Positions 8,156-15,433 of a stretch of DNA of 33,005 nucleotides are shown here, in pieces. This DNA comes from a virus. The notes beneath the pieces are model-generated. The model made no database searches, had not been told where the DNA came from, and worked only from the letters and a program-made list of their open reading frames with translations. Position numbers and translations under genes: made by a program. Location of the stretch: UHGV virus genome UHGV-0323875, one strand, 5' to 3'. Position 1 is the first letter of the stretch; the number at the start of each line of letters is the position of its first letter.

Positions 8156-8646
8156 TCATGAGTCTTTTGAATGACGTTCAGAAATTCATTGAAGCCCATC
8201 CGGGCTGTTCTTCCGGAGACATTGCGGATGCTTTTGCAGGTTACTCACGGCTGCGCGTTCTGCAGTCAGCAAGCAAGTTACGTCAGAGTGGGCGTGTGGC
8301 TCACCGTTGTGAAGGAGATACACGCAGACATTTCCCGCGCCTGACTGAGAGAGCGCAGGAGCCGGAACCACAACCAGTTCGTGAAACCAGACCTGTGCGC
8401 AATTTCTATGTCGGCACTAACGATCCCCGGGTGATTTTGTGCCTGACCCGCCAGGCTGAAGAACTGGAGTCCAGGGGCTTATACCGTCGTGCTGCAACGG
8501 TGTGGATGGCGGCATTCCGTGAAAGCCACTCCCAGCCAGAACGAAACAATTTTCTGGCGCGTCGTGAGCAGTGCTTACAGAAAAGCAGCAAGCGCGCTGC
8601 ATCGGGTGAAGAGTGGTATCTGTCAGGGAATTACGTGGGGGCGTAA
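8152..8646 (+). CDS. Hypothetical protein, 164 aa (possible PerC/YfdN-like regulator)
   Basis: Start and stop overlap the neighbouring genes; C-terminal LYRRAATVWMAAFRES segment resembles PerC/ANR-type helices (weak, from memory). Confidence 0.45.
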   Translation: MIMSLLNDVQKFIEAHPGCSSGDIADAFAGYSRLRVLQSASKLRQSGRVAHRCEGDTRRHFPRLTERAQEPEPQPVRETRPVRNFYVGTNDPRVILCLTRQAEELESRGLYRRAATVWMAAFRESHSQPERNNFLARREQCLQKSSKRAASGEEWYLSGNYVGA

Positions 8647-8972
8647 TGACGACGTTAACTCAATGCCAGCATCAGGTGCTGGATATGCTGATTTCTTACC
8701 AGAAAGAGCGTGGCTTTCCGCCAACCAATCAGGAGGTGGCAACCATGCTGGGATACCGTTCAGTGAATGCAGCGGTAGAGCATCTTCGTGCACTGGAGAA
8801 AAAAGGCGTCATCACGATAAAGCGTGGCGTGGCCCGGGGGATCACGCTTCATACCACAGTGAAGGACGACGACAGCGAGGCAGCCGGGATTATCCGCGCA
8901 CTGCTTGCCGGTGAGGAAAACGCCAGACTGCGTGCAGCCCACTGGTTACATGAGAGGGGCCTGAAAGTATGA
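8646..8972 (+). CDS. LexA-like DNA-binding-domain protein with no S24 peptidase domain
   Basis: LTQCQHQVLDMLISYQKERGFPPTNQEVATMLGYRSVNAAVEHLRALEKKGVITIKRGVARGITL parallels the E. coli LexA N-terminal winged HTH nearly residue for residue; the protein ends after about 108 aa. Confidence 0.7.
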   Translation: MTTLTQCQHQVLDMLISYQKERGFPPTNQEVATMLGYRSVNAAVEHLRALEKKGVITIKRGVARGITLHTTVKDDDSEAAGIIRALLAGEENARLRAAHWLHERGLKV

Positions 8973-9358
8973 AGCTGATCCTGCCTTTCCCGCCCAGCGT
9001 GAACACGTACTGGCGACACCCCAACAAAGGGGCGTTTGCTGGTAAGAGTCTGATAAGCGCAGCGGGGCGCAAATTCCAGAGCGCGGCATGCGCAGCAATA
9101 GTTGAGCAGTTACGTCGTCTGCCGAAACCAACGTCGGCACCTGCTTCAGTGGAGATCGTGTTGTTTCCTCCGGATAACCGGATCCGCGATCTGGACAACT
9201 ATAACAAGGCGCTGTTTGACGCCCTGACCCACGCGGGTGTGTGGGAAGACGACAGACAGGTGAAAAGAATGCTGGTGGAGTGGGGACCGGTTATCCCGGA
9301 AGGGAAGGTCGAGATCACTATCAGTAAGTATGAGAAACCGGCGGGTGCAGCCGCCTGA
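8969..9358 (+). CDS. rusA: Holliday junction resolvase RusA
   Basis: LPFPPSVNTYWRH...RDLDNYNKALFDALTHAGVWEDDRQV matches the RusA signature. Confidence 0.85.
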   Translation: MKLILPFPPSVNTYWRHPNKGAFAGKSLISAAGRKFQSAACAAIVEQLRRLPKPTSAPASVEIVLFPPDNRIRDLDNYNKALFDALTHAGVWEDDRQVKRMLVEWGPVIPEGKVEITISKYEKPAGAAA

Positions 9359-13080: not shown

Positions 13081-13694
13081 TGAACCAACAATTATTTCAA
13101 AAGGCGGCTGGTATTAGCGCCGGGCTGGCTGCGCGCTGGTTTCCGCACATTGATGCTGCAATGAAAGAGTTTGGAATCACAGCAGTTAACGATCAGGCCA
13201 TGTTCATTGCACAAGTTGGGCATGAATCTGCTGGTTTTACCTCGCTGGTAGAGAATTTTAACTACTCGGTTGAAGGGCTGAAGAAAACCTTTGGTAAGCG
13301 CCTGACGCCGTATCAGTGCGAAATGCTGGGGCGTGTCGATGGTAAACAGGTCGCTCACCAGCCACAAATAGCCAATCTGGTTTATGGTGACCGCATGGGG
13401 AATAACAGTCAGGGTGATGGCTGGAAATATCGCGGTCGTGGCCTGCTGCAAATCACTGGTCGTGAGAACTACACCAAATGCGGTACAGCGCTGAACCTTG
13501 ATCTGATCAGTACGCCAGAACTTTTGACGCAAGAGCGACATGCGGCCCGTTCGGCGGCATGGTACTTCACGTTACGTGGTTGCCTTCTATATTCGGGGGA
13601 TGTTGAGCGCGTCACGCAGATTATTAACGGCGGGCAGAACGGCATTAAAGACCGCCGTGAACGTTACGCCAAAGCAAAAACCGCACTGGTATGA
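13080..13694 (+). CDS. Endolysin, glycoside hydrolase family 19 (chitinase-like lysozyme)
   Basis: FIAQVGHESAGF...YRGRGLLQITGRENY...INGG motifs typical of GH19 phage endolysins. Confidence 0.8.
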   Translation: MNQQLFQKAAGISAGLAARWFPHIDAAMKEFGITAVNDQAMFIAQVGHESAGFTSLVENFNYSVEGLKKTFGKRLTPYQCEMLGRVDGKQVAHQPQIANLVYGDRMGNNSQGDGWKYRGRGLLQITGRENYTKCGTALNLDLISTPELLTQERHAARSAAWYFTLRGCLLYSGDVERVTQIINGGQNGIKDRRERYAKAKTALV

Positions 13695-13701
13695 GGTCGC
13701 A

Positions 13702-13971
13702 ATGGGACTTGAAATGATTATCGGCCTGGCTGTTGCTGTGCTGGCTGCAATTGCAGGTGCTTTTGGTCTGGGTAAATCACGCGGTACAAGCATCGCAGAA
13801 ACACAAGCGAACCAGCAACGCACTGAAGAACGCGCAGCAGCTACTGAAGCCGTTGCAGAACGCCGGGTAGAAACAACAAAAGGAGCCAGGGATGTACAGC
13901 AGACTGTTAACCATCTTCCTGATGACGATGTTGACCGTGAGTTGCGCGAAAAATTTACCCGCAAAACCTGA
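13702..13971 (+). CDS. i-spanin (Rz-like)
   Basis: N-terminal transmembrane helix followed by a charged coiled region; directly follows the endolysin. Confidence 0.6.
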   Translation: MGLEMIIGLAVAVLAAIAGAFGLGKSRGTSIAETQANQQRTEERAAATEAVAERRVETTKGARDVQQTVNHLPDDDVDRELREKFTRKT

Positions 13972-14134
13972 AGTAACGGACACGGCCTGTGACTGGGTAA
14001 GCATCATCTACCTTACTGAGCACGATATTGCCGTGCTGGATAAACAGACGAAGCGGGACATATTGGCGCACAACAAATCAGTGCAGGCTAACTGCATGAA
14101 GGATCCAGGTCGTGAACGTAGAGAACCTAAGTAA
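13892..14134 (+). CDS. o-spanin (Rz1-like lipoprotein), overlapping the end of Rz in another frame
   Basis: Signal peptide MYSRLLTIFLMTMLTVSC with a lipobox Cys; overlaps the Rz 3' end. Confidence 0.6.
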   Translation: MYSRLLTIFLMTMLTVSCAKNLPAKPEVTDTACDWVSIIYLTEHDIAVLDKQTKRDILAHNKSVQANCMKDPGRERREPK

Positions 14135-14342
14135 CGCGCATTACATCTATAACGAGATGAAAGAGCTACAGCGACAGAAAACCATACTGGAAAGTGGTGC
14201 TGGGCTTGGTGTGACAATCCAGTCTACCTATCAAGACGATGCCTTTCTTGAGGCCATACGCCCGCATGCTGTTGCTGAGCTTGATCACCGCATAGAGAAA
14301 AAGAAAGCTGTGCTGGTTGATTTGGGTATCTCCTTCTCCTAA
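14112..14342 (+). CDS. Small hypothetical protein (uncertain)
   Basis: 76 aa ORF with a GTG start overlapping the Rz1 end; no recognisable family. Confidence 0.3.
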   Translation: MNVENLSNAHYIYNEMKELQRQKTILESGAGLGVTIQSTYQDDAFLEAIRPHAVAELDHRIEKKKAVLVDLGISFS

Positions 14343-14416
14343 TGAATTAGGAGCTACAGCAGGTTTTAATTATGTGCTTATGATATTCTTCCCTAGTTAA
14401 TTAACTGGGGGAGTAA

Positions 14417-14980
14417 ATGCAAATGCTTGAATTTGTTGAGTCAGTAAGAAAATCTTTATTAGATGAAAATTATGAGGCTGCATTGTTTATTGCCTTATCT
14501 CTTCCTGATATATGTGGGAAACTTGAAACTCCTGAAGAGCGGAACGGGCCAAGAGCAAAAAGATGGTTTAAGGATAACCTTAAGGATAAATATTTTGCAG
14601 ATAATCTTTATGAGACGTTTTTGGCTAACTTTCCCGAGCAATTAGATAAAATGCCTCAATACTTAATCGATGATTTAAAAACAAAAAAACCATTGGTAAG
14701 CTTTGACCATGAAAGCTACTGGGCTTTAAGAAATGCATTTTTGCATGAGGCATCTGATAGTACTAAGTTACAAAAAATTCAACTTACGCACTCTTCTGCG
14801 CACATGAATATGTTTAACGGTGTGCTTCAGTTAAGTGTTATTAATTTATCTAATGATATCTGCGATGCGGTAGTTAAGTGGGTTGAGCGGATGAAGGATA
14901 ATAATGATGTATGCCAGAGGATAAATTCGAGGGCAAAAATCAAAAATGAAATGTTGGGTGGCGCTATTCGATTTGGGTAG
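14417..14980 (+). CDS. AT-rich moron protein of unknown function, 187 aa, with an R-x4-H motif (possible HEPN-like)
   Basis: Marked drop in GC content relative to both flanks; GGGGGAG RBS; motif WALRNAFLHE; followed by a strong terminator. Confidence 0.5.
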   Translation: MQMLEFVESVRKSLLDENYEAALFIALSLPDICGKLETPEERNGPRAKRWFKDNLKDKYFADNLYETFLANFPEQLDKMPQYLIDDLKTKKPLVSFDHESYWALRNAFLHEASDSTKLQKIQLTHSSAHMNMFNGVLQLSVINLSNDICDAVVKWVERMKDNNDVCQRINSRAKIKNEMLGGAIRFG

Positions 14981-15041
14981 TCTTACAAATTATCAAATCA
15001 TTCCTACATGTTATCTCTAAATTTTAGAGTTACATAAGAAT

Positions 15042-15072
15042 AAAAAAACACCAGCTTTGGCTGGTGTTTTTG
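15042..15072 (+). terminator. Rho-independent terminator after the moron gene
   Basis: A-run, stem ACACCAGC / GCTGGTGT with a TTTG loop, then TTTTT. Confidence 0.7.
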
Positions 15073-15082
15073 CGGAGCATGT

Positions 15083-15433
15083 ATGCCAACTTTAATACCC
15101 CGCGCATGTCGCAAACGTGGTTGTCCTGGCACGACTACGGACCGTTCAGGCTACTGTGAGCAGCATCGCAATGAGGGCTGGCAGCAGCATCAGCAGGGTA
15201 AGAGTCGCCATGAGCGTGGCTACGGCAGCAAGTGGGATATCAAACGCGCCCGCATCCTGAAGCGTGATAATCATCTGTGTCAGAACTGCCTGCGTACTGG
15301 ACGTGCTGTCGCAGCCACAACCGTTGACCACATCAAGGCGAAGGCCCACGGCGGTACTGATGAAGACAGCAACCTTGAGAGCCTGTGCTGGTCGTGTCAC
15401 GCAGCGAAGACCGCGCGCGAGCGGCTCAAGTGA
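15083..15433 (+). CDS. HNH endonuclease (terminase-associated)
   Basis: CxxC...H.H...N...CWSCHAAK motifs; directly upstream of the terminase small subunit. Confidence 0.75.
   Translation: MPTLIPRACRKRGCPGTTTDRSGYCEQHRNEGWQQHQQGKSRHERGYGSKWDIKRARILKRDNHLCQNCLRTGRAVAATTVDHIKAKAHGGTDEDSNLESLCWSCHAAKTARERLK

What the first reader, a model, noticed from the sequence alone, without database searches (positions are those of the whole stretch)
14343..15080. AT-rich moron between the lysis cassette and the packaging module, possibly a HEPN-type protein
GC content drops sharply for one gene (14417..14980) that has its own strong RBS and terminator. The protein has no obvious phage structural role and contains WALRNAFLHE, an R-x4-H arrangement of the kind that forms HEPN RNase active sites in abortive-infection and toxin proteins. 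This is a typical location for lysogenic-conversion or defence cargo.
Basis: inference. Interest (0 to 1): 0.6.

Follow-up and report, generated by a model that had tools for sequence, protein, structure and literature searches.

The report
Stand-alone HEPN-type RNase gene, prophage cargo
A low-GC gene between the lysis and DNA-packaging genes of an E. coli prophage encodes a small protein predicted to be an RNA-cutting enzyme of the HEPN type; it belongs to a large, unnamed, mostly phage-borne family and is a good but untested candidate for an anti-phage "suicide" defence.

Summary
ORF 14417..14980 (the true start is probably 14423) lies in the lowest-GC bin of the window (0.35, against 0.49-0.59 either side). 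It has a Shine-Dalgarno site and a strong hairpin terminator. It occupies a variable slot: about 1,900 of 5,426 E. coli genomes carry the adjacent packaging genes, but only about 10 carry this gene.

No Pfam, NCBIfam, PADLOC or PDB sequence match exists. That includes HepS, the Gifsy-1 solo-HEPN defence, which I confirmed was in the searched set. The family has about 2,700 cluster representatives, all unnamed, and no conserved partner gene. Members are cargo in unrelated prophages, and one sits inside a Type I restriction-modification operon.

The most likely function is a trigger-activated abortive-infection RNase. RNase activity and defence are inferred, not shown, and no consensus promoter of its own was found. 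It is a new family of a known kind, of moderate interest.

The parts
14343..14416 (+). AT-rich 74-nt intergenic leader with a Shine-Dalgarno sequence (GGGGGAG, 14407-14413). No consensus sigma-70 promoter.
   Evidence: Sequence. The promoter scan found nothing on the + strand. A matched scan of 18 homologous loci found 1/18, against a 6% background.
14417..14980 (+). CDS for the stand-alone HEPN-like protein: 187 aa as annotated (WP_050437385.1), probably 185 aa from the ATG at 14423.
   Evidence: ORF. RefSeq annotates it as 'hypothetical protein'. Homologues start at M3. phrog_18591, E = 2.7e-29. Model pLDDT 87.3.
14504..14521 (+). The P30-D31-I32-C33-G34-K35 block in predicted helix 2. D31 is the candidate HEPN helix-2 acidic residue (D-x3-K).
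   Evidence: P30 128/129, D31 127/129 (the other 2 are Glu), C33 126/129. Helix 19-37. The HEPN criterion is from PMC3710099.
14729..14746 (+). R105-N-A-F-L-H110, the R-x4-H motif and predicted catalytic centre.
   Evidence: R and H are the only invariant columns, 129/129 each. They lie at the C-terminal end of helix 98-109, followed by a low-confidence loop at 111-116.
14777..14836 (+). Beta elements (residues 121-140) inserted directly after the motif. They carry the near-invariant H129 and precede helix 4 (141-159).
15044..15076 (.). Intrinsic terminator: a perfect 12-bp hairpin flanked by an A-run and a T-run, so formally bidirectional. It sits just before the HNH endonuclease gene.
   Evidence: dG -20.4, z -5.2. 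Terminator-like hairpins follow the homologue in 11/18 enteric loci, against 39/359 other genes, Fisher p = 1.2e-6.
13655..15130 (+). The variable cargo slot between the endolysin and the HNH-TerS-TerL packaging module. It holds the spanin genes, a 76-aa ORF (14112-14342) and the HEPN-like gene.
   Evidence: blastn break-points against SKA5, 118970_sal3 and L027. Alternative contents in other E. coli prophages.

Best explanation
The gene encodes a stand-alone protein of the HEPN superfamily, predicted to be a metal-independent endoribonuclease. It travels as low-GC accessory cargo in temperate phages, here at the lysis-packaging junction of an SfV/HK97-like prophage integrated next to a tRNA-Thr gene near proA.

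The most likely mechanism is as follows.
- The protein forms a homo-oligomer in which two R-x4-H motifs (R105/H110), helped by D31 of helix 2, make a composite RNase site.
- It is catalytically silent by default, because no antitoxin or partner gene is conserved.
- It is switched on by a component or consequence of infection by another phage.
- It then cuts tRNA or other RNA, stops translation and aborts the infection. This is abortive infection or superinfection exclusion, as shown for HepS and Tha.

Shown here: the ORF, its composition, its terminator, the variability of the slot, the conservation pattern, the HEPN-like fold and motif placement, the lack of a conserved partner, and the phage, restriction-modification and toxin-antitoxin contexts of relatives.

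Inferred: RNase activity, oligomerisation, trigger-dependent activation, expression in lysogens, and the defence phenotype.
For: Conservation.
- R105 and H110 are the only invariant columns in 129 relatives of 25-61% identity.
- D31, P30, C33, W50, H129 and W155 are each at least 90% conserved.

Fold.
- The AF2 model has pLDDT 87.3 and pTM 0.83.
- Foldseek's top hit is AbiV, though it is not significant.

Topology. It matches the published HEPN definition:
- there is an insert between helices 2 and 3, variable from 4 to 67 residues across the family;
- an acidic residue sits in helix 2;
- Asn follows the Arg;
- there is a Csx1-like beta insertion after the motif.

Cargo behaviour.
- The gene has lower GC than its flanks in 52/52 loci.
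- All 18 loci of the enteric clade that I tabulated (39-100% identity) place it just after lysis genes. Those lysis genes belong to three unrelated endolysin families, and where the downstream genes were identified they are unrelated terminase types.
- Terminators of its own are enriched.
- It is rare at a common slot.

No conserved neighbour, so a solo system.

Defence-type contexts of relatives.
- One sits between hsdS and hsdR of a Type I restriction-modification operon.
- One is next to a methylase plus ResIII helicase pair.
- One is in an islet rich in toxin-antitoxin genes.
- One is on the opposite strand between the antiterminator Q and the holin of lambdoid prophages.
- One relative is fused to TPR repeats.

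Precedent. HepS and Tha are prophage-encoded HEPN abortive-infection proteins that are silent until a phage tail protein activates them.
Against: - No sequence-profile link to any HEPN family in Pfam or NCBIfam, to any PADLOC model, or to any PDB chain. This holds for the single sequence and for two family profiles.
- I had no coordinates. So I could not check that R105/H110 superpose on catalytic residues, nor that D31 is close to them.
- In 114/129 relatives the residue after Arg is Cys, not the usual N/D/H.
- No consensus promoter was found upstream. The gene is co-oriented with the late operon, so expression in lysogens is unproven and it may be mainly a late lytic gene.
- In some lambdoid relatives the lysis-terminase slot carries anti-defence genes (Tad2-like, Acb2/Tad1-like), so the position alone does not imply defence.
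- No experimental data exist for any member.
Confidence: 0.55

Rival explanations
1. It is a late-expressed RNase that serves the phage itself, made together with the lysis and packaging genes. It could be a counter-defence enzyme, for example one that degrades host immune RNAs or cyclic-oligonucleotide signals. It could also be a weapon against co-resident or competing phages, rather than a defence expressed in the lysogen.
For: - The gene has the same orientation as the Q-dependent late operon and follows it directly, with only a 74-nt gap and no consensus promoter, here or in 17/18 homologous loci.
- In lambdoid prophages L088/L089 the lysis-terminase slot carries Tad2-like and Acb2/Tad1-hairpin anti-defence genes.
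Against: - Relatives occur in settings with no late operon: inside a Type I restriction-modification operon, in an islet rich in toxin-antitoxin genes, beside an integrase or a repressor, and on the strand opposite to the late genes.
- The recurrent terminator right after the gene makes most sense for a transcript that is not Q-antiterminated, which implies a local promoter.
- All characterised prophage HEPN solo proteins are defences.
Confidence: 0.2
2. It is a HEPN-fold protein that is not a nuclease toxin but a regulatory, RNA- or ligand-binding, or immunity-type subunit. This would be comparable to non-catalytic HEPN domains, or to DzbB of the Dazbog system, whose deletion is reported as apparently toxic.
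For: - 9 of 129 relatives give weak PADLOC hits to DzbB (best E = 0.0012).
- The one hit I inspected covers exactly the motif region, P0066 residues 65-95 (NDCYALRCAILHSG), matched to DzbB profile positions 286-316 of 341.
- A dzbB deletion could not be transformed, 'possibly due to toxicity'.
- Cys follows Arg in most of the family, and no antitoxin is present although HEPN toxins usually need one.
Against: - Absolute invariance of both R and H, with nothing else invariant, is the signature of catalysis. HEPN domains that lost activity have lost the motif.
- No DUF262 (DzbA-like) or other conserved partner lies next to any sampled member.
- HepS shows that a solo HEPN nuclease can be harmless without an antitoxin.
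- The DzbB match is short and weak.
Confidence: 0.1
3. It is the toxin of a toxin-antitoxin or addiction module that stabilises the prophage. The antitoxin would be an unrecognised small neighbour, such as the 76-aa ORF at 14112-14342, or an RNA.
For: - Many HEPN proteins are toxin-antitoxin toxins (HepT/MntA).
- The 76-aa ORF lies immediately upstream and co-occurs with the gene in the E. coli clade (cluster c18).
- One relative lies among toxin-antitoxin genes.
Against: - The 76-aa ORF occurs in only 3 of 51 analysed loci. It also persists, as a pseudogene, in a prophage where the HEPN gene is replaced by a YfbU-family gene.
- No MNT or other neighbour is conserved.
- No positionally conserved antisense ORF and no Rfam element was found.
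Confidence: 0.07
4. It is not a HEPN protein at all. On this view, the R-x4-H and the four-helix similarity are coincidental in an unrelated helical protein, for example a DinB-like metal-binding bundle that uses His, Cys and Asp.
For: - Foldseek finds nothing significant in the PDB.
- The near-invariant D31, C33 and H129, plus H110, could in principle bind a metal.
Against: - C106 and C101 are lost in the enteric clade, while R and H never vary.
Confidence: 0.05

Closest known systems
HepS (STM14_3211), the solo HEPN abortive-infection protein of Salmonella prophage Gifsy-1 (PDB 9OIJ/9OIK; Sargen et al., Nature 2026, PMC13043305)
   Same: - Both are small stand-alone proteins with a HEPN domain and an R-N-x3-H motif at a similar position (R100/N101/H105 against R105/N106/H110).
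- Both are encoded as accessory cargo of enterobacterial temperate phages.
- Both have no conserved partner or inhibitor gene, and their homologues are often on prophages.
- HepS is the best model for how this protein may work: silent oligomer, phage-protein trigger, tRNA anticodon cleavage.
   Different: - No detectable sequence relationship. 9OIK is in the PDB copy that was searched, yet the protein and two family profiles give no hit at E <= 10.
[quoted passage not shown]
- The resident phage here has a contractile tail (sheath and tube genes), not a siphovirus tail.
- Oligomeric state, trigger and target are unknown here.
Tha-1/Tha-2, the tail-activated HEPN systems of Staphylococcus aureus prophages (Rostol et al. 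2024, PMC11087260)
   Same: It is a prophage-encoded HEPN RNase with an R-N-x3-H motif that acts as an abortive-infection defence activated by phage structural proteins.
   Different: - Tha is 301 aa, with an N-terminal region of unknown fold.
- Tha is controlled by an overlapping antisense gene (ith) located next to the integrase.
- Here the protein is 185-187 aa and HEPN-only, and no conserved antisense ORF exists.
Csx1/Csm6-type HEPN domains of type III CRISPR-Cas (for example 8y7f, Csx1-Crn2)
   Different: There is no CARF sensor domain, no CRISPR context and no sequence similarity.
HepT toxins of HepT/MntA (HEPN-MNT) toxin-antitoxin systems (7ae2, 5yep)
   Different: There is no adjacent MNT nucleotidyltransferase or any conserved neighbour. 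This protein also has extra beta elements and a C-terminal extension.
PrrC-type and other HEPN genes linked to restriction-modification systems (Anantharaman et al. 2013)
   Same: One distant but verified family member sits between hsdS and hsdR of a Type I operon, as PrrC does.
   Different: The window gene is not linked to any restriction-modification system, and the family lacks the ABC-ATPase domain of PrrC/RloC.
DzbB of the Dazbog system (PADLOC model PDLC03836)
   Same: This is the only recurrent hit to any library of known families. 9/129 members match it weakly, and in the one case inspected the match lies over the R-x4-H segment.
   Different: - The best E is only 0.0012, over about 31 residues.
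- The window protein itself does not hit it.
- The DzbB model is 341 positions long.
- No DzbA/DUF262 partner lies near any sampled member.

Membership tests
HEPN superfamily | Four-helix up-down bundle core (two alpha-hairpins) | tested here: met
HEPN superfamily | [quoted passage not shown] | tested here: met
   R105 and H110 are invariant in 129/129 relatives. They lie at the C-terminal end of helix 98-109 and are followed by a flexible loop at 111-116.
HEPN superfamily | Polar residue (N/D/H) immediately after the Arg | tested here: met
   It is N106 in this protein and its enteric clade (15/129). The rest of the family has Cys (114/129), which is atypical.
HEPN superfamily | Conserved acidic residue in helix 2 (E-x3-[KR]) close to the motif | tested here: inconclusive
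   D31 (127 Asp and 2 Glu of 129) lies in helix 19-37, as D-x3-K in this protein. Spatial proximity to R105/H110 could not be checked, because no coordinates were available.
HEPN superfamily | [quoted passage not shown] | tested here: met
   The segment between residues 59 and 98 varies from 4 to 67 residues across the family, with a median of 15 (it is 38 in this protein).
HEPN superfamily | Sequence-profile match to a curated HEPN-clan family | tested here: not met
   No Pfam or NCBIfam hit for the protein or for 129 relatives, and no recurrent weak hit. No PDB sequence hit. HHpred-type profile-profile searching against Pfam was not available.
HEPN superfamily | Metal-independent endoribonuclease activity that depends on the motif His/Arg, usually in a dimeric composite site | not testable with these tools
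   This needs biochemistry. Multimer modelling was not available.
HepS family (Gifsy-1 solo HEPN) | Detectable homology to STM14_3211 / 9OIJ | tested here: not met
HepT/MntA type VII toxin-antitoxin system | Adjacent MNT nucleotidyltransferase antitoxin | tested here: not met
   No conserved neighbour in 51 loci or in 7 further sampled contexts.
Tha system | About 300-aa protein with an N-terminal domain, plus an overlapping antisense inhibitor gene | tested here: not met
   The protein is 185-187 aa and HEPN-only. Antisense ORFs are not positionally conserved.
Dazbog (DzbA/DzbB) | Match to the DzbB model and a neighbouring DzbA (DUF262) | tested here: not met
   The window protein has no PADLOC hit. 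Only 9/129 relatives hit weakly. No DUF262 neighbour was seen.
Phage moron (autonomous cargo unit) | Atypical composition, and present or absent between genes that are adjacent in related phages | tested here: met
   GC 0.356 against 0.524. The slot is empty in strain 98191 and holds other genes in PEC422, MINF_2E and SKA5. 10 genomes have the gene, against about 1,900 with the packaging module.
Phage moron (autonomous cargo unit) | Its own terminator | tested here: met
   11/18 homologous loci against 39/359 control genes.
Phage moron (autonomous cargo unit) | Its own promoter, active in the lysogen | tested here: inconclusive
   No consensus sigma-70 site. Weak or non-canonical promoters, or H-NS or other control, cannot be excluded. 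There are no expression data.

The most novel reading that the evidence does not exclude
The family may not be a host-protecting abortive-infection toxin. It may instead be a phage-side HEPN enzyme, expressed with the late genes, that disarms bacterial immunity or rival phages, for example by cutting immune RNAs, tRNAs needed by competitors, or cyclic-oligonucleotide second messengers. On this reading, its preferred place at the lysis-packaging junction marks that slot as a counter-defence locus. That slot carries Tad2-like and Acb2/Tad1-like genes in related lambdoid phages.
Probability: 0.12. Interest if true: 0.75.

Novelty: new member of a known kind. Interest (0 to 1): 0.45.

Why it matters
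Prophage-encoded single-protein HEPN nucleases have only recently been shown to be self-sufficient sensors and effectors of abortive infection (Tha in 2024, HepS in 2026).

This gene typifies a separate and much larger family of that kind. It has about 2,700 clusters at 50% identity across many phyla, and 54 viral contigs were recovered in a single scan. The family is invisible to Pfam, NCBIfam and PADLOC, and every source calls it "hypothetical".

If it is confirmed as a defence, three things follow:
- it would add a common solo system to defence-annotation tools;
- it would give a second or third case for studying how a solo HEPN stays silent without an antitoxin, and what triggers it;
- it would mark the lysis-packaging junction of enterobacterial prophages as a slot worth mining.

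For E. coli biology the immediate consequence is small, because only about 10 of 5,426 complete genomes carry it.

Tried and rejected
Searches that found nothing.
- Sequence-family searches of the protein, and of 22 and 129 relatives, gave nothing usable. This covers Pfam, NCBIfam, PADLOC and PDB; only phrog_18591, of unknown function, matched.
- Foldseek against the PDB found nothing significant. BFVD found only two uncharacterised family members. The afdb50 library was unavailable.
- No hit for phrog_18591 or WP_050437385 in the paper library, and no prior description of this family in the other literature searches.

HepS identity: rejected.
- The Gifsy-1 record from LT2 has no HepS-like ORF.
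- The paper's supplements are not held.
- I confirmed that 9OIK was in the searched PDB set by using the lambda J trigger peptide as a query. The negative sequence searches therefore count.

Conserved partner or antitoxin: rejected. All-against-all clustering of +-5 neighbours in 51 loci found none. The recurrent neighbours are lysis genes, terminases or umuDC.

Tha-like antisense inhibitor and known RNA elements: rejected.

Own promoter: not found.

DzbB lead.
- I followed it with my last two family searches.
- Only one representative hit, over the motif segment.
- It is too weak for membership and is kept as a lead.

DUF262 neighbours were looked for and not seen.

The first search for related loci attempt, with the wide alignment, failed for lack of a conserved block. 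The narrower alignment worked.

Full report
**1. The observation**

The ORF at 14417..14980 (+) encodes 187 aa and contains SYWALRNAFLHEASD. GC falls to 0.34-0.36 over 14300-15050. Upstream it is 0.48-0.53 and downstream 0.55-0.62. The 14401-15000 bin is the lowest of 55 bins in the window.

A Shine-Dalgarno sequence (GGGGGAG, 14407-14413) precedes the gene. A perfect 12-bp hairpin with a T-run at 15044-15076 follows it. The hairpin folds at -20.4 kcal/mol, z = -5.2 against shuffles.

- The start is probably the second ATG, at 14423. 118 of 129 homologues have Met at the column aligned with M3, and 20 of the 21 close homologues begin there. GGAG is 9 nt from that ATG but only 3 nt from 14417.
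- No sigma-70 consensus promoter lies in the 74-nt gap upstream. Only 1 of 18 homologous loci has one, against 6% for control genes.
- Against the nearest phages that lack the gene, the non-homologous segment is about 13655-15130, which is wider than the gene.

**2. Where it sits**

The window is an SfV/HK97-like temperate phage with a contractile tail. In E. coli F9792 it is integrated beside a tRNA-Thr gene near proA. RefSeq calls the gene product WP_050437385.1, 'hypothetical protein'.

The gene order is holins, GH19 endolysin, two small spanin-like ORFs, a 76-aa ORF, this gene, the terminator, HNH endonuclease, TerS, TerL.

Parts of this region, mostly the HNH-TerS-TerL module, occur in 1,908 of 5,426 complete E. 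coli genomes. The gene itself is in only 10.

The slot has several other states:
- empty in strain 98191;
- a reverse-strand 112-aa ORF in PEC422;
- a reverse-strand YfbU-family gene in MINF_2E;
- a 106-aa ORF in phage SKA5.

The exact protein is seen on 871 contigs from E. coli, Salmonella and Citrobacter. It is always unnamed.

**3. What the protein is**

No curated family matches it in Pfam, NCBIfam, PADLOC or PDB sequences. It belongs to phrog_18591, of unknown function.

A word-index search found 22 relatives. The exhaustive profile search found 2,699 cluster representatives at E <= 1e-3. Most are 160-200 aa. None of the 325 relatives listed with metadata carries a name or a Pfam tag.

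In an alignment of 129 representatives (25-61% identity to the query) the only invariant columns are R105 and H110. P30, D31, C33, W50, H129 and W155 are each at least 90% conserved.

The AlphaFold model is confident (pLDDT 87.3, pTM 0.83). Its elements run in this order:
- helices 2-15 and 19-37;
- a variable helical insert;
- helix 98-109, ending in R105...H110;
- a flexible loop;
- a small beta unit at 121-140;
- helix 141-159;
- a short C-terminal extension.

This is the HEPN layout as defined by Anantharaman et al. 2013. [quoted passage not shown] Csx1 additionally has a beta-hairpin right after the motif.

One atypical feature stands out. The residue after Arg is Cys in 114/129 relatives and Asn only in the enteric clade.

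**4. Relation to known systems**

The closest functional analogues are HepS (Gifsy-1) and Tha (S. aureus phages). Both are prophage-encoded HEPN RNases that stay silent until a phage tail protein activates them.

HepS is also a solo protein with R-N-x3-H at residues 100-105, so I tested whether the two are the same family. The HepS complex 9OIK is in the PDB copy that was searched; I verified this with the lambda J trigger peptide. Yet the protein and both family profiles find nothing at E <= 10. HepS is also absent from the top fold matches. This is therefore a different HEPN lineage.

The only recurrent hit to a known defence component is weak. 9 of 129 relatives match DzbB of the Dazbog system (best E = 0.0012). 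In the one case I could inspect, the match covers exactly the motif segment. No DzbA/DUF262 neighbour was seen, so I keep this as a lead only.

**5. Context of relatives**

I fetched 54 viral-contig loci and 11 genome loci, plus a further 13 through exact protein look-ups. Clustering the +-5 neighbours in 51 loci shows no conserved partner.

In all 18 loci of the enteric clade that I tabulated (39-100% identity), the gene lies within five genes downstream of holin, endolysin or spanin genes. In most it follows them directly. The endolysins belong to three unrelated families (GH19, GH108, phage lysozyme). Where the downstream genes were identified, they are unrelated terminase types. A 33%-identical homologue, unannotated in its record, sits in the same slot in phage ECP1.

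A second clade, in hosts of about 32% GC, follows umuD-umuC.

Other members lie in these settings:
- between hsdS and hsdR of a Type I restriction-modification operon, with membership verified by hhalign at 99.8%;
- next to a methylase plus ResIII helicase pair;
- in an islet rich in toxin-antitoxin genes;
- beside an integrase or a repressor;
- on the opposite strand between the antiterminator Q and the holin of lambdoid prophages.

One relative is fused to TPR repeats.

The gene is poorer in GC than its +-4 kb flanks in all 52 loci. Terminator-like hairpins with unrelated stems follow it in 11/18 enteric loci, against 39/359 control genes (Fisher p = 1.2e-6).

**6. Mechanism**

The best-supported explanation (confidence 0.55 as a whole, about 0.8 for 'HEPN-fold RNase') is a solo abortive-infection or superinfection-exclusion effector that needs a trigger. 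A homo-oligomer would form composite R-x4-H sites and stay inactive without an antitoxin, as HepS does. On infection it would be activated and cleave tRNA or other RNA.

Shown here: the anatomy, the conservation, the fold-level assignment, the mobility, the lack of a partner, and defence-type contexts of relatives.

Inferred: catalysis, oligomerisation, the trigger, lysogenic expression and the phenotype.

The main rival (0.2) is a late-expressed enzyme that benefits the phage itself, including counter-defence. Three points favour it:
- the gene is co-oriented with the late operon;
- no promoter was found;
- Tad2-like and Acb2/Tad1-like genes occupy the same slot in related lambdoid phages.

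Lesser rivals are a non-catalytic or regulatory HEPN-like subunit (0.1), a toxin-antitoxin toxin with an unrecognised antitoxin (0.07), and a chance resemblance (0.05).

**7. Verdict**

The gene is a new, unnamed and widespread family within a well-known kind: HEPN nucleases carried as prophage cargo. It is not a new kind of system.

It is a sound candidate for a defence screen and for trigger discovery. A specialist would not be surprised by it. Interest is 0.45.

Noticed in passing
window 14417-14425: The annotated start (ATG 14417) is probably wrong. Homologues begin at the second ATG (14423), and the Shine-Dalgarno spacing fits that codon, which gives a 185-aa protein.
   Followed up: yes
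L076 5001-5477 (NC_049926.1, Escherichia phage ECP1, about 8614-9090): An intact 33%-identical family member lies between the Rz-like spanin and the terminase genes. It is not annotated in either the RefSeq or the GenBank record.
   Followed up: partly
L068 2431-11620 (IMGVR_UViG_3300029129_000090): A family member lies between hsdS and hsdR of a Type I restriction-modification operon, the position PrrC occupies. An integrase/invertase gene lies just upstream of hsdS, which suggests a phase-variable specificity subunit.
   Followed up: partly
L088 3221-4005 and L089 3346-4062: Lambdoid prophages carry Tad2-like and Acb2/Tad1-hairpin (anti-Thoeris/anti-CBASS type) genes in the lysis-terminase slot. 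The HEPN-family gene is on the opposite strand, between the antiterminator Q and the holin. The same phages thus seem to pair putative defence and counter-defence cargo around the lysis cassette.
   Followed up: no
alignment A2; P0066 residues 65-95: 9 of 129 family members give weak PADLOC hits to DzbB (Dazbog). The one inspected aligns the R-x4-H segment to DzbB profile positions 286-316 of 341. This hints that DzbB may carry a related C-terminal HEPN-like motif.
   Followed up: partly
alignment A2, columns of residues 33, 101, 106: Most of the family has Cys directly after the catalytic Arg (114/129), a further Cys at position 101 (80/129), and a near-invariant C33 beside D31. The enteric clade has replaced 101 and 106 (with Y and N) but keeps C33. 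This could be a redox or metal site in the ancestral form, but I have no explanation for it.
   Followed up: no
window 14112-14342: A 76-aa ORF of unknown function lies directly upstream and co-occurs with the gene only in the E. coli clade. In strain MINF_2E it is a pseudogene (internal stop), and there a reverse-strand YfbU-family gene replaces the HEPN-like gene.
   Followed up: partly
window 13702-14134: Two small overlapping ORFs follow the endolysin. One has an N-terminal membrane helix. The other starts with the lipoprotein-like signal MYSRLLTIFLMTMLTVSC. They look like a separate i-spanin/o-spanin pair that differs from the Rz/DUF2570 type in the closest phages. This is inferred from the sequence only.
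   Followed up: no
L008 7313-8657; L085 451-2359: In two non-phage loci the family member is immediately preceded by unrelated genes of unknown function. One is a 221-aa protein with predicted membrane helices. The other is a 217-aa and 234-aa pair that overlaps the start codon. These may be lineage-specific partners.
   Followed up: no
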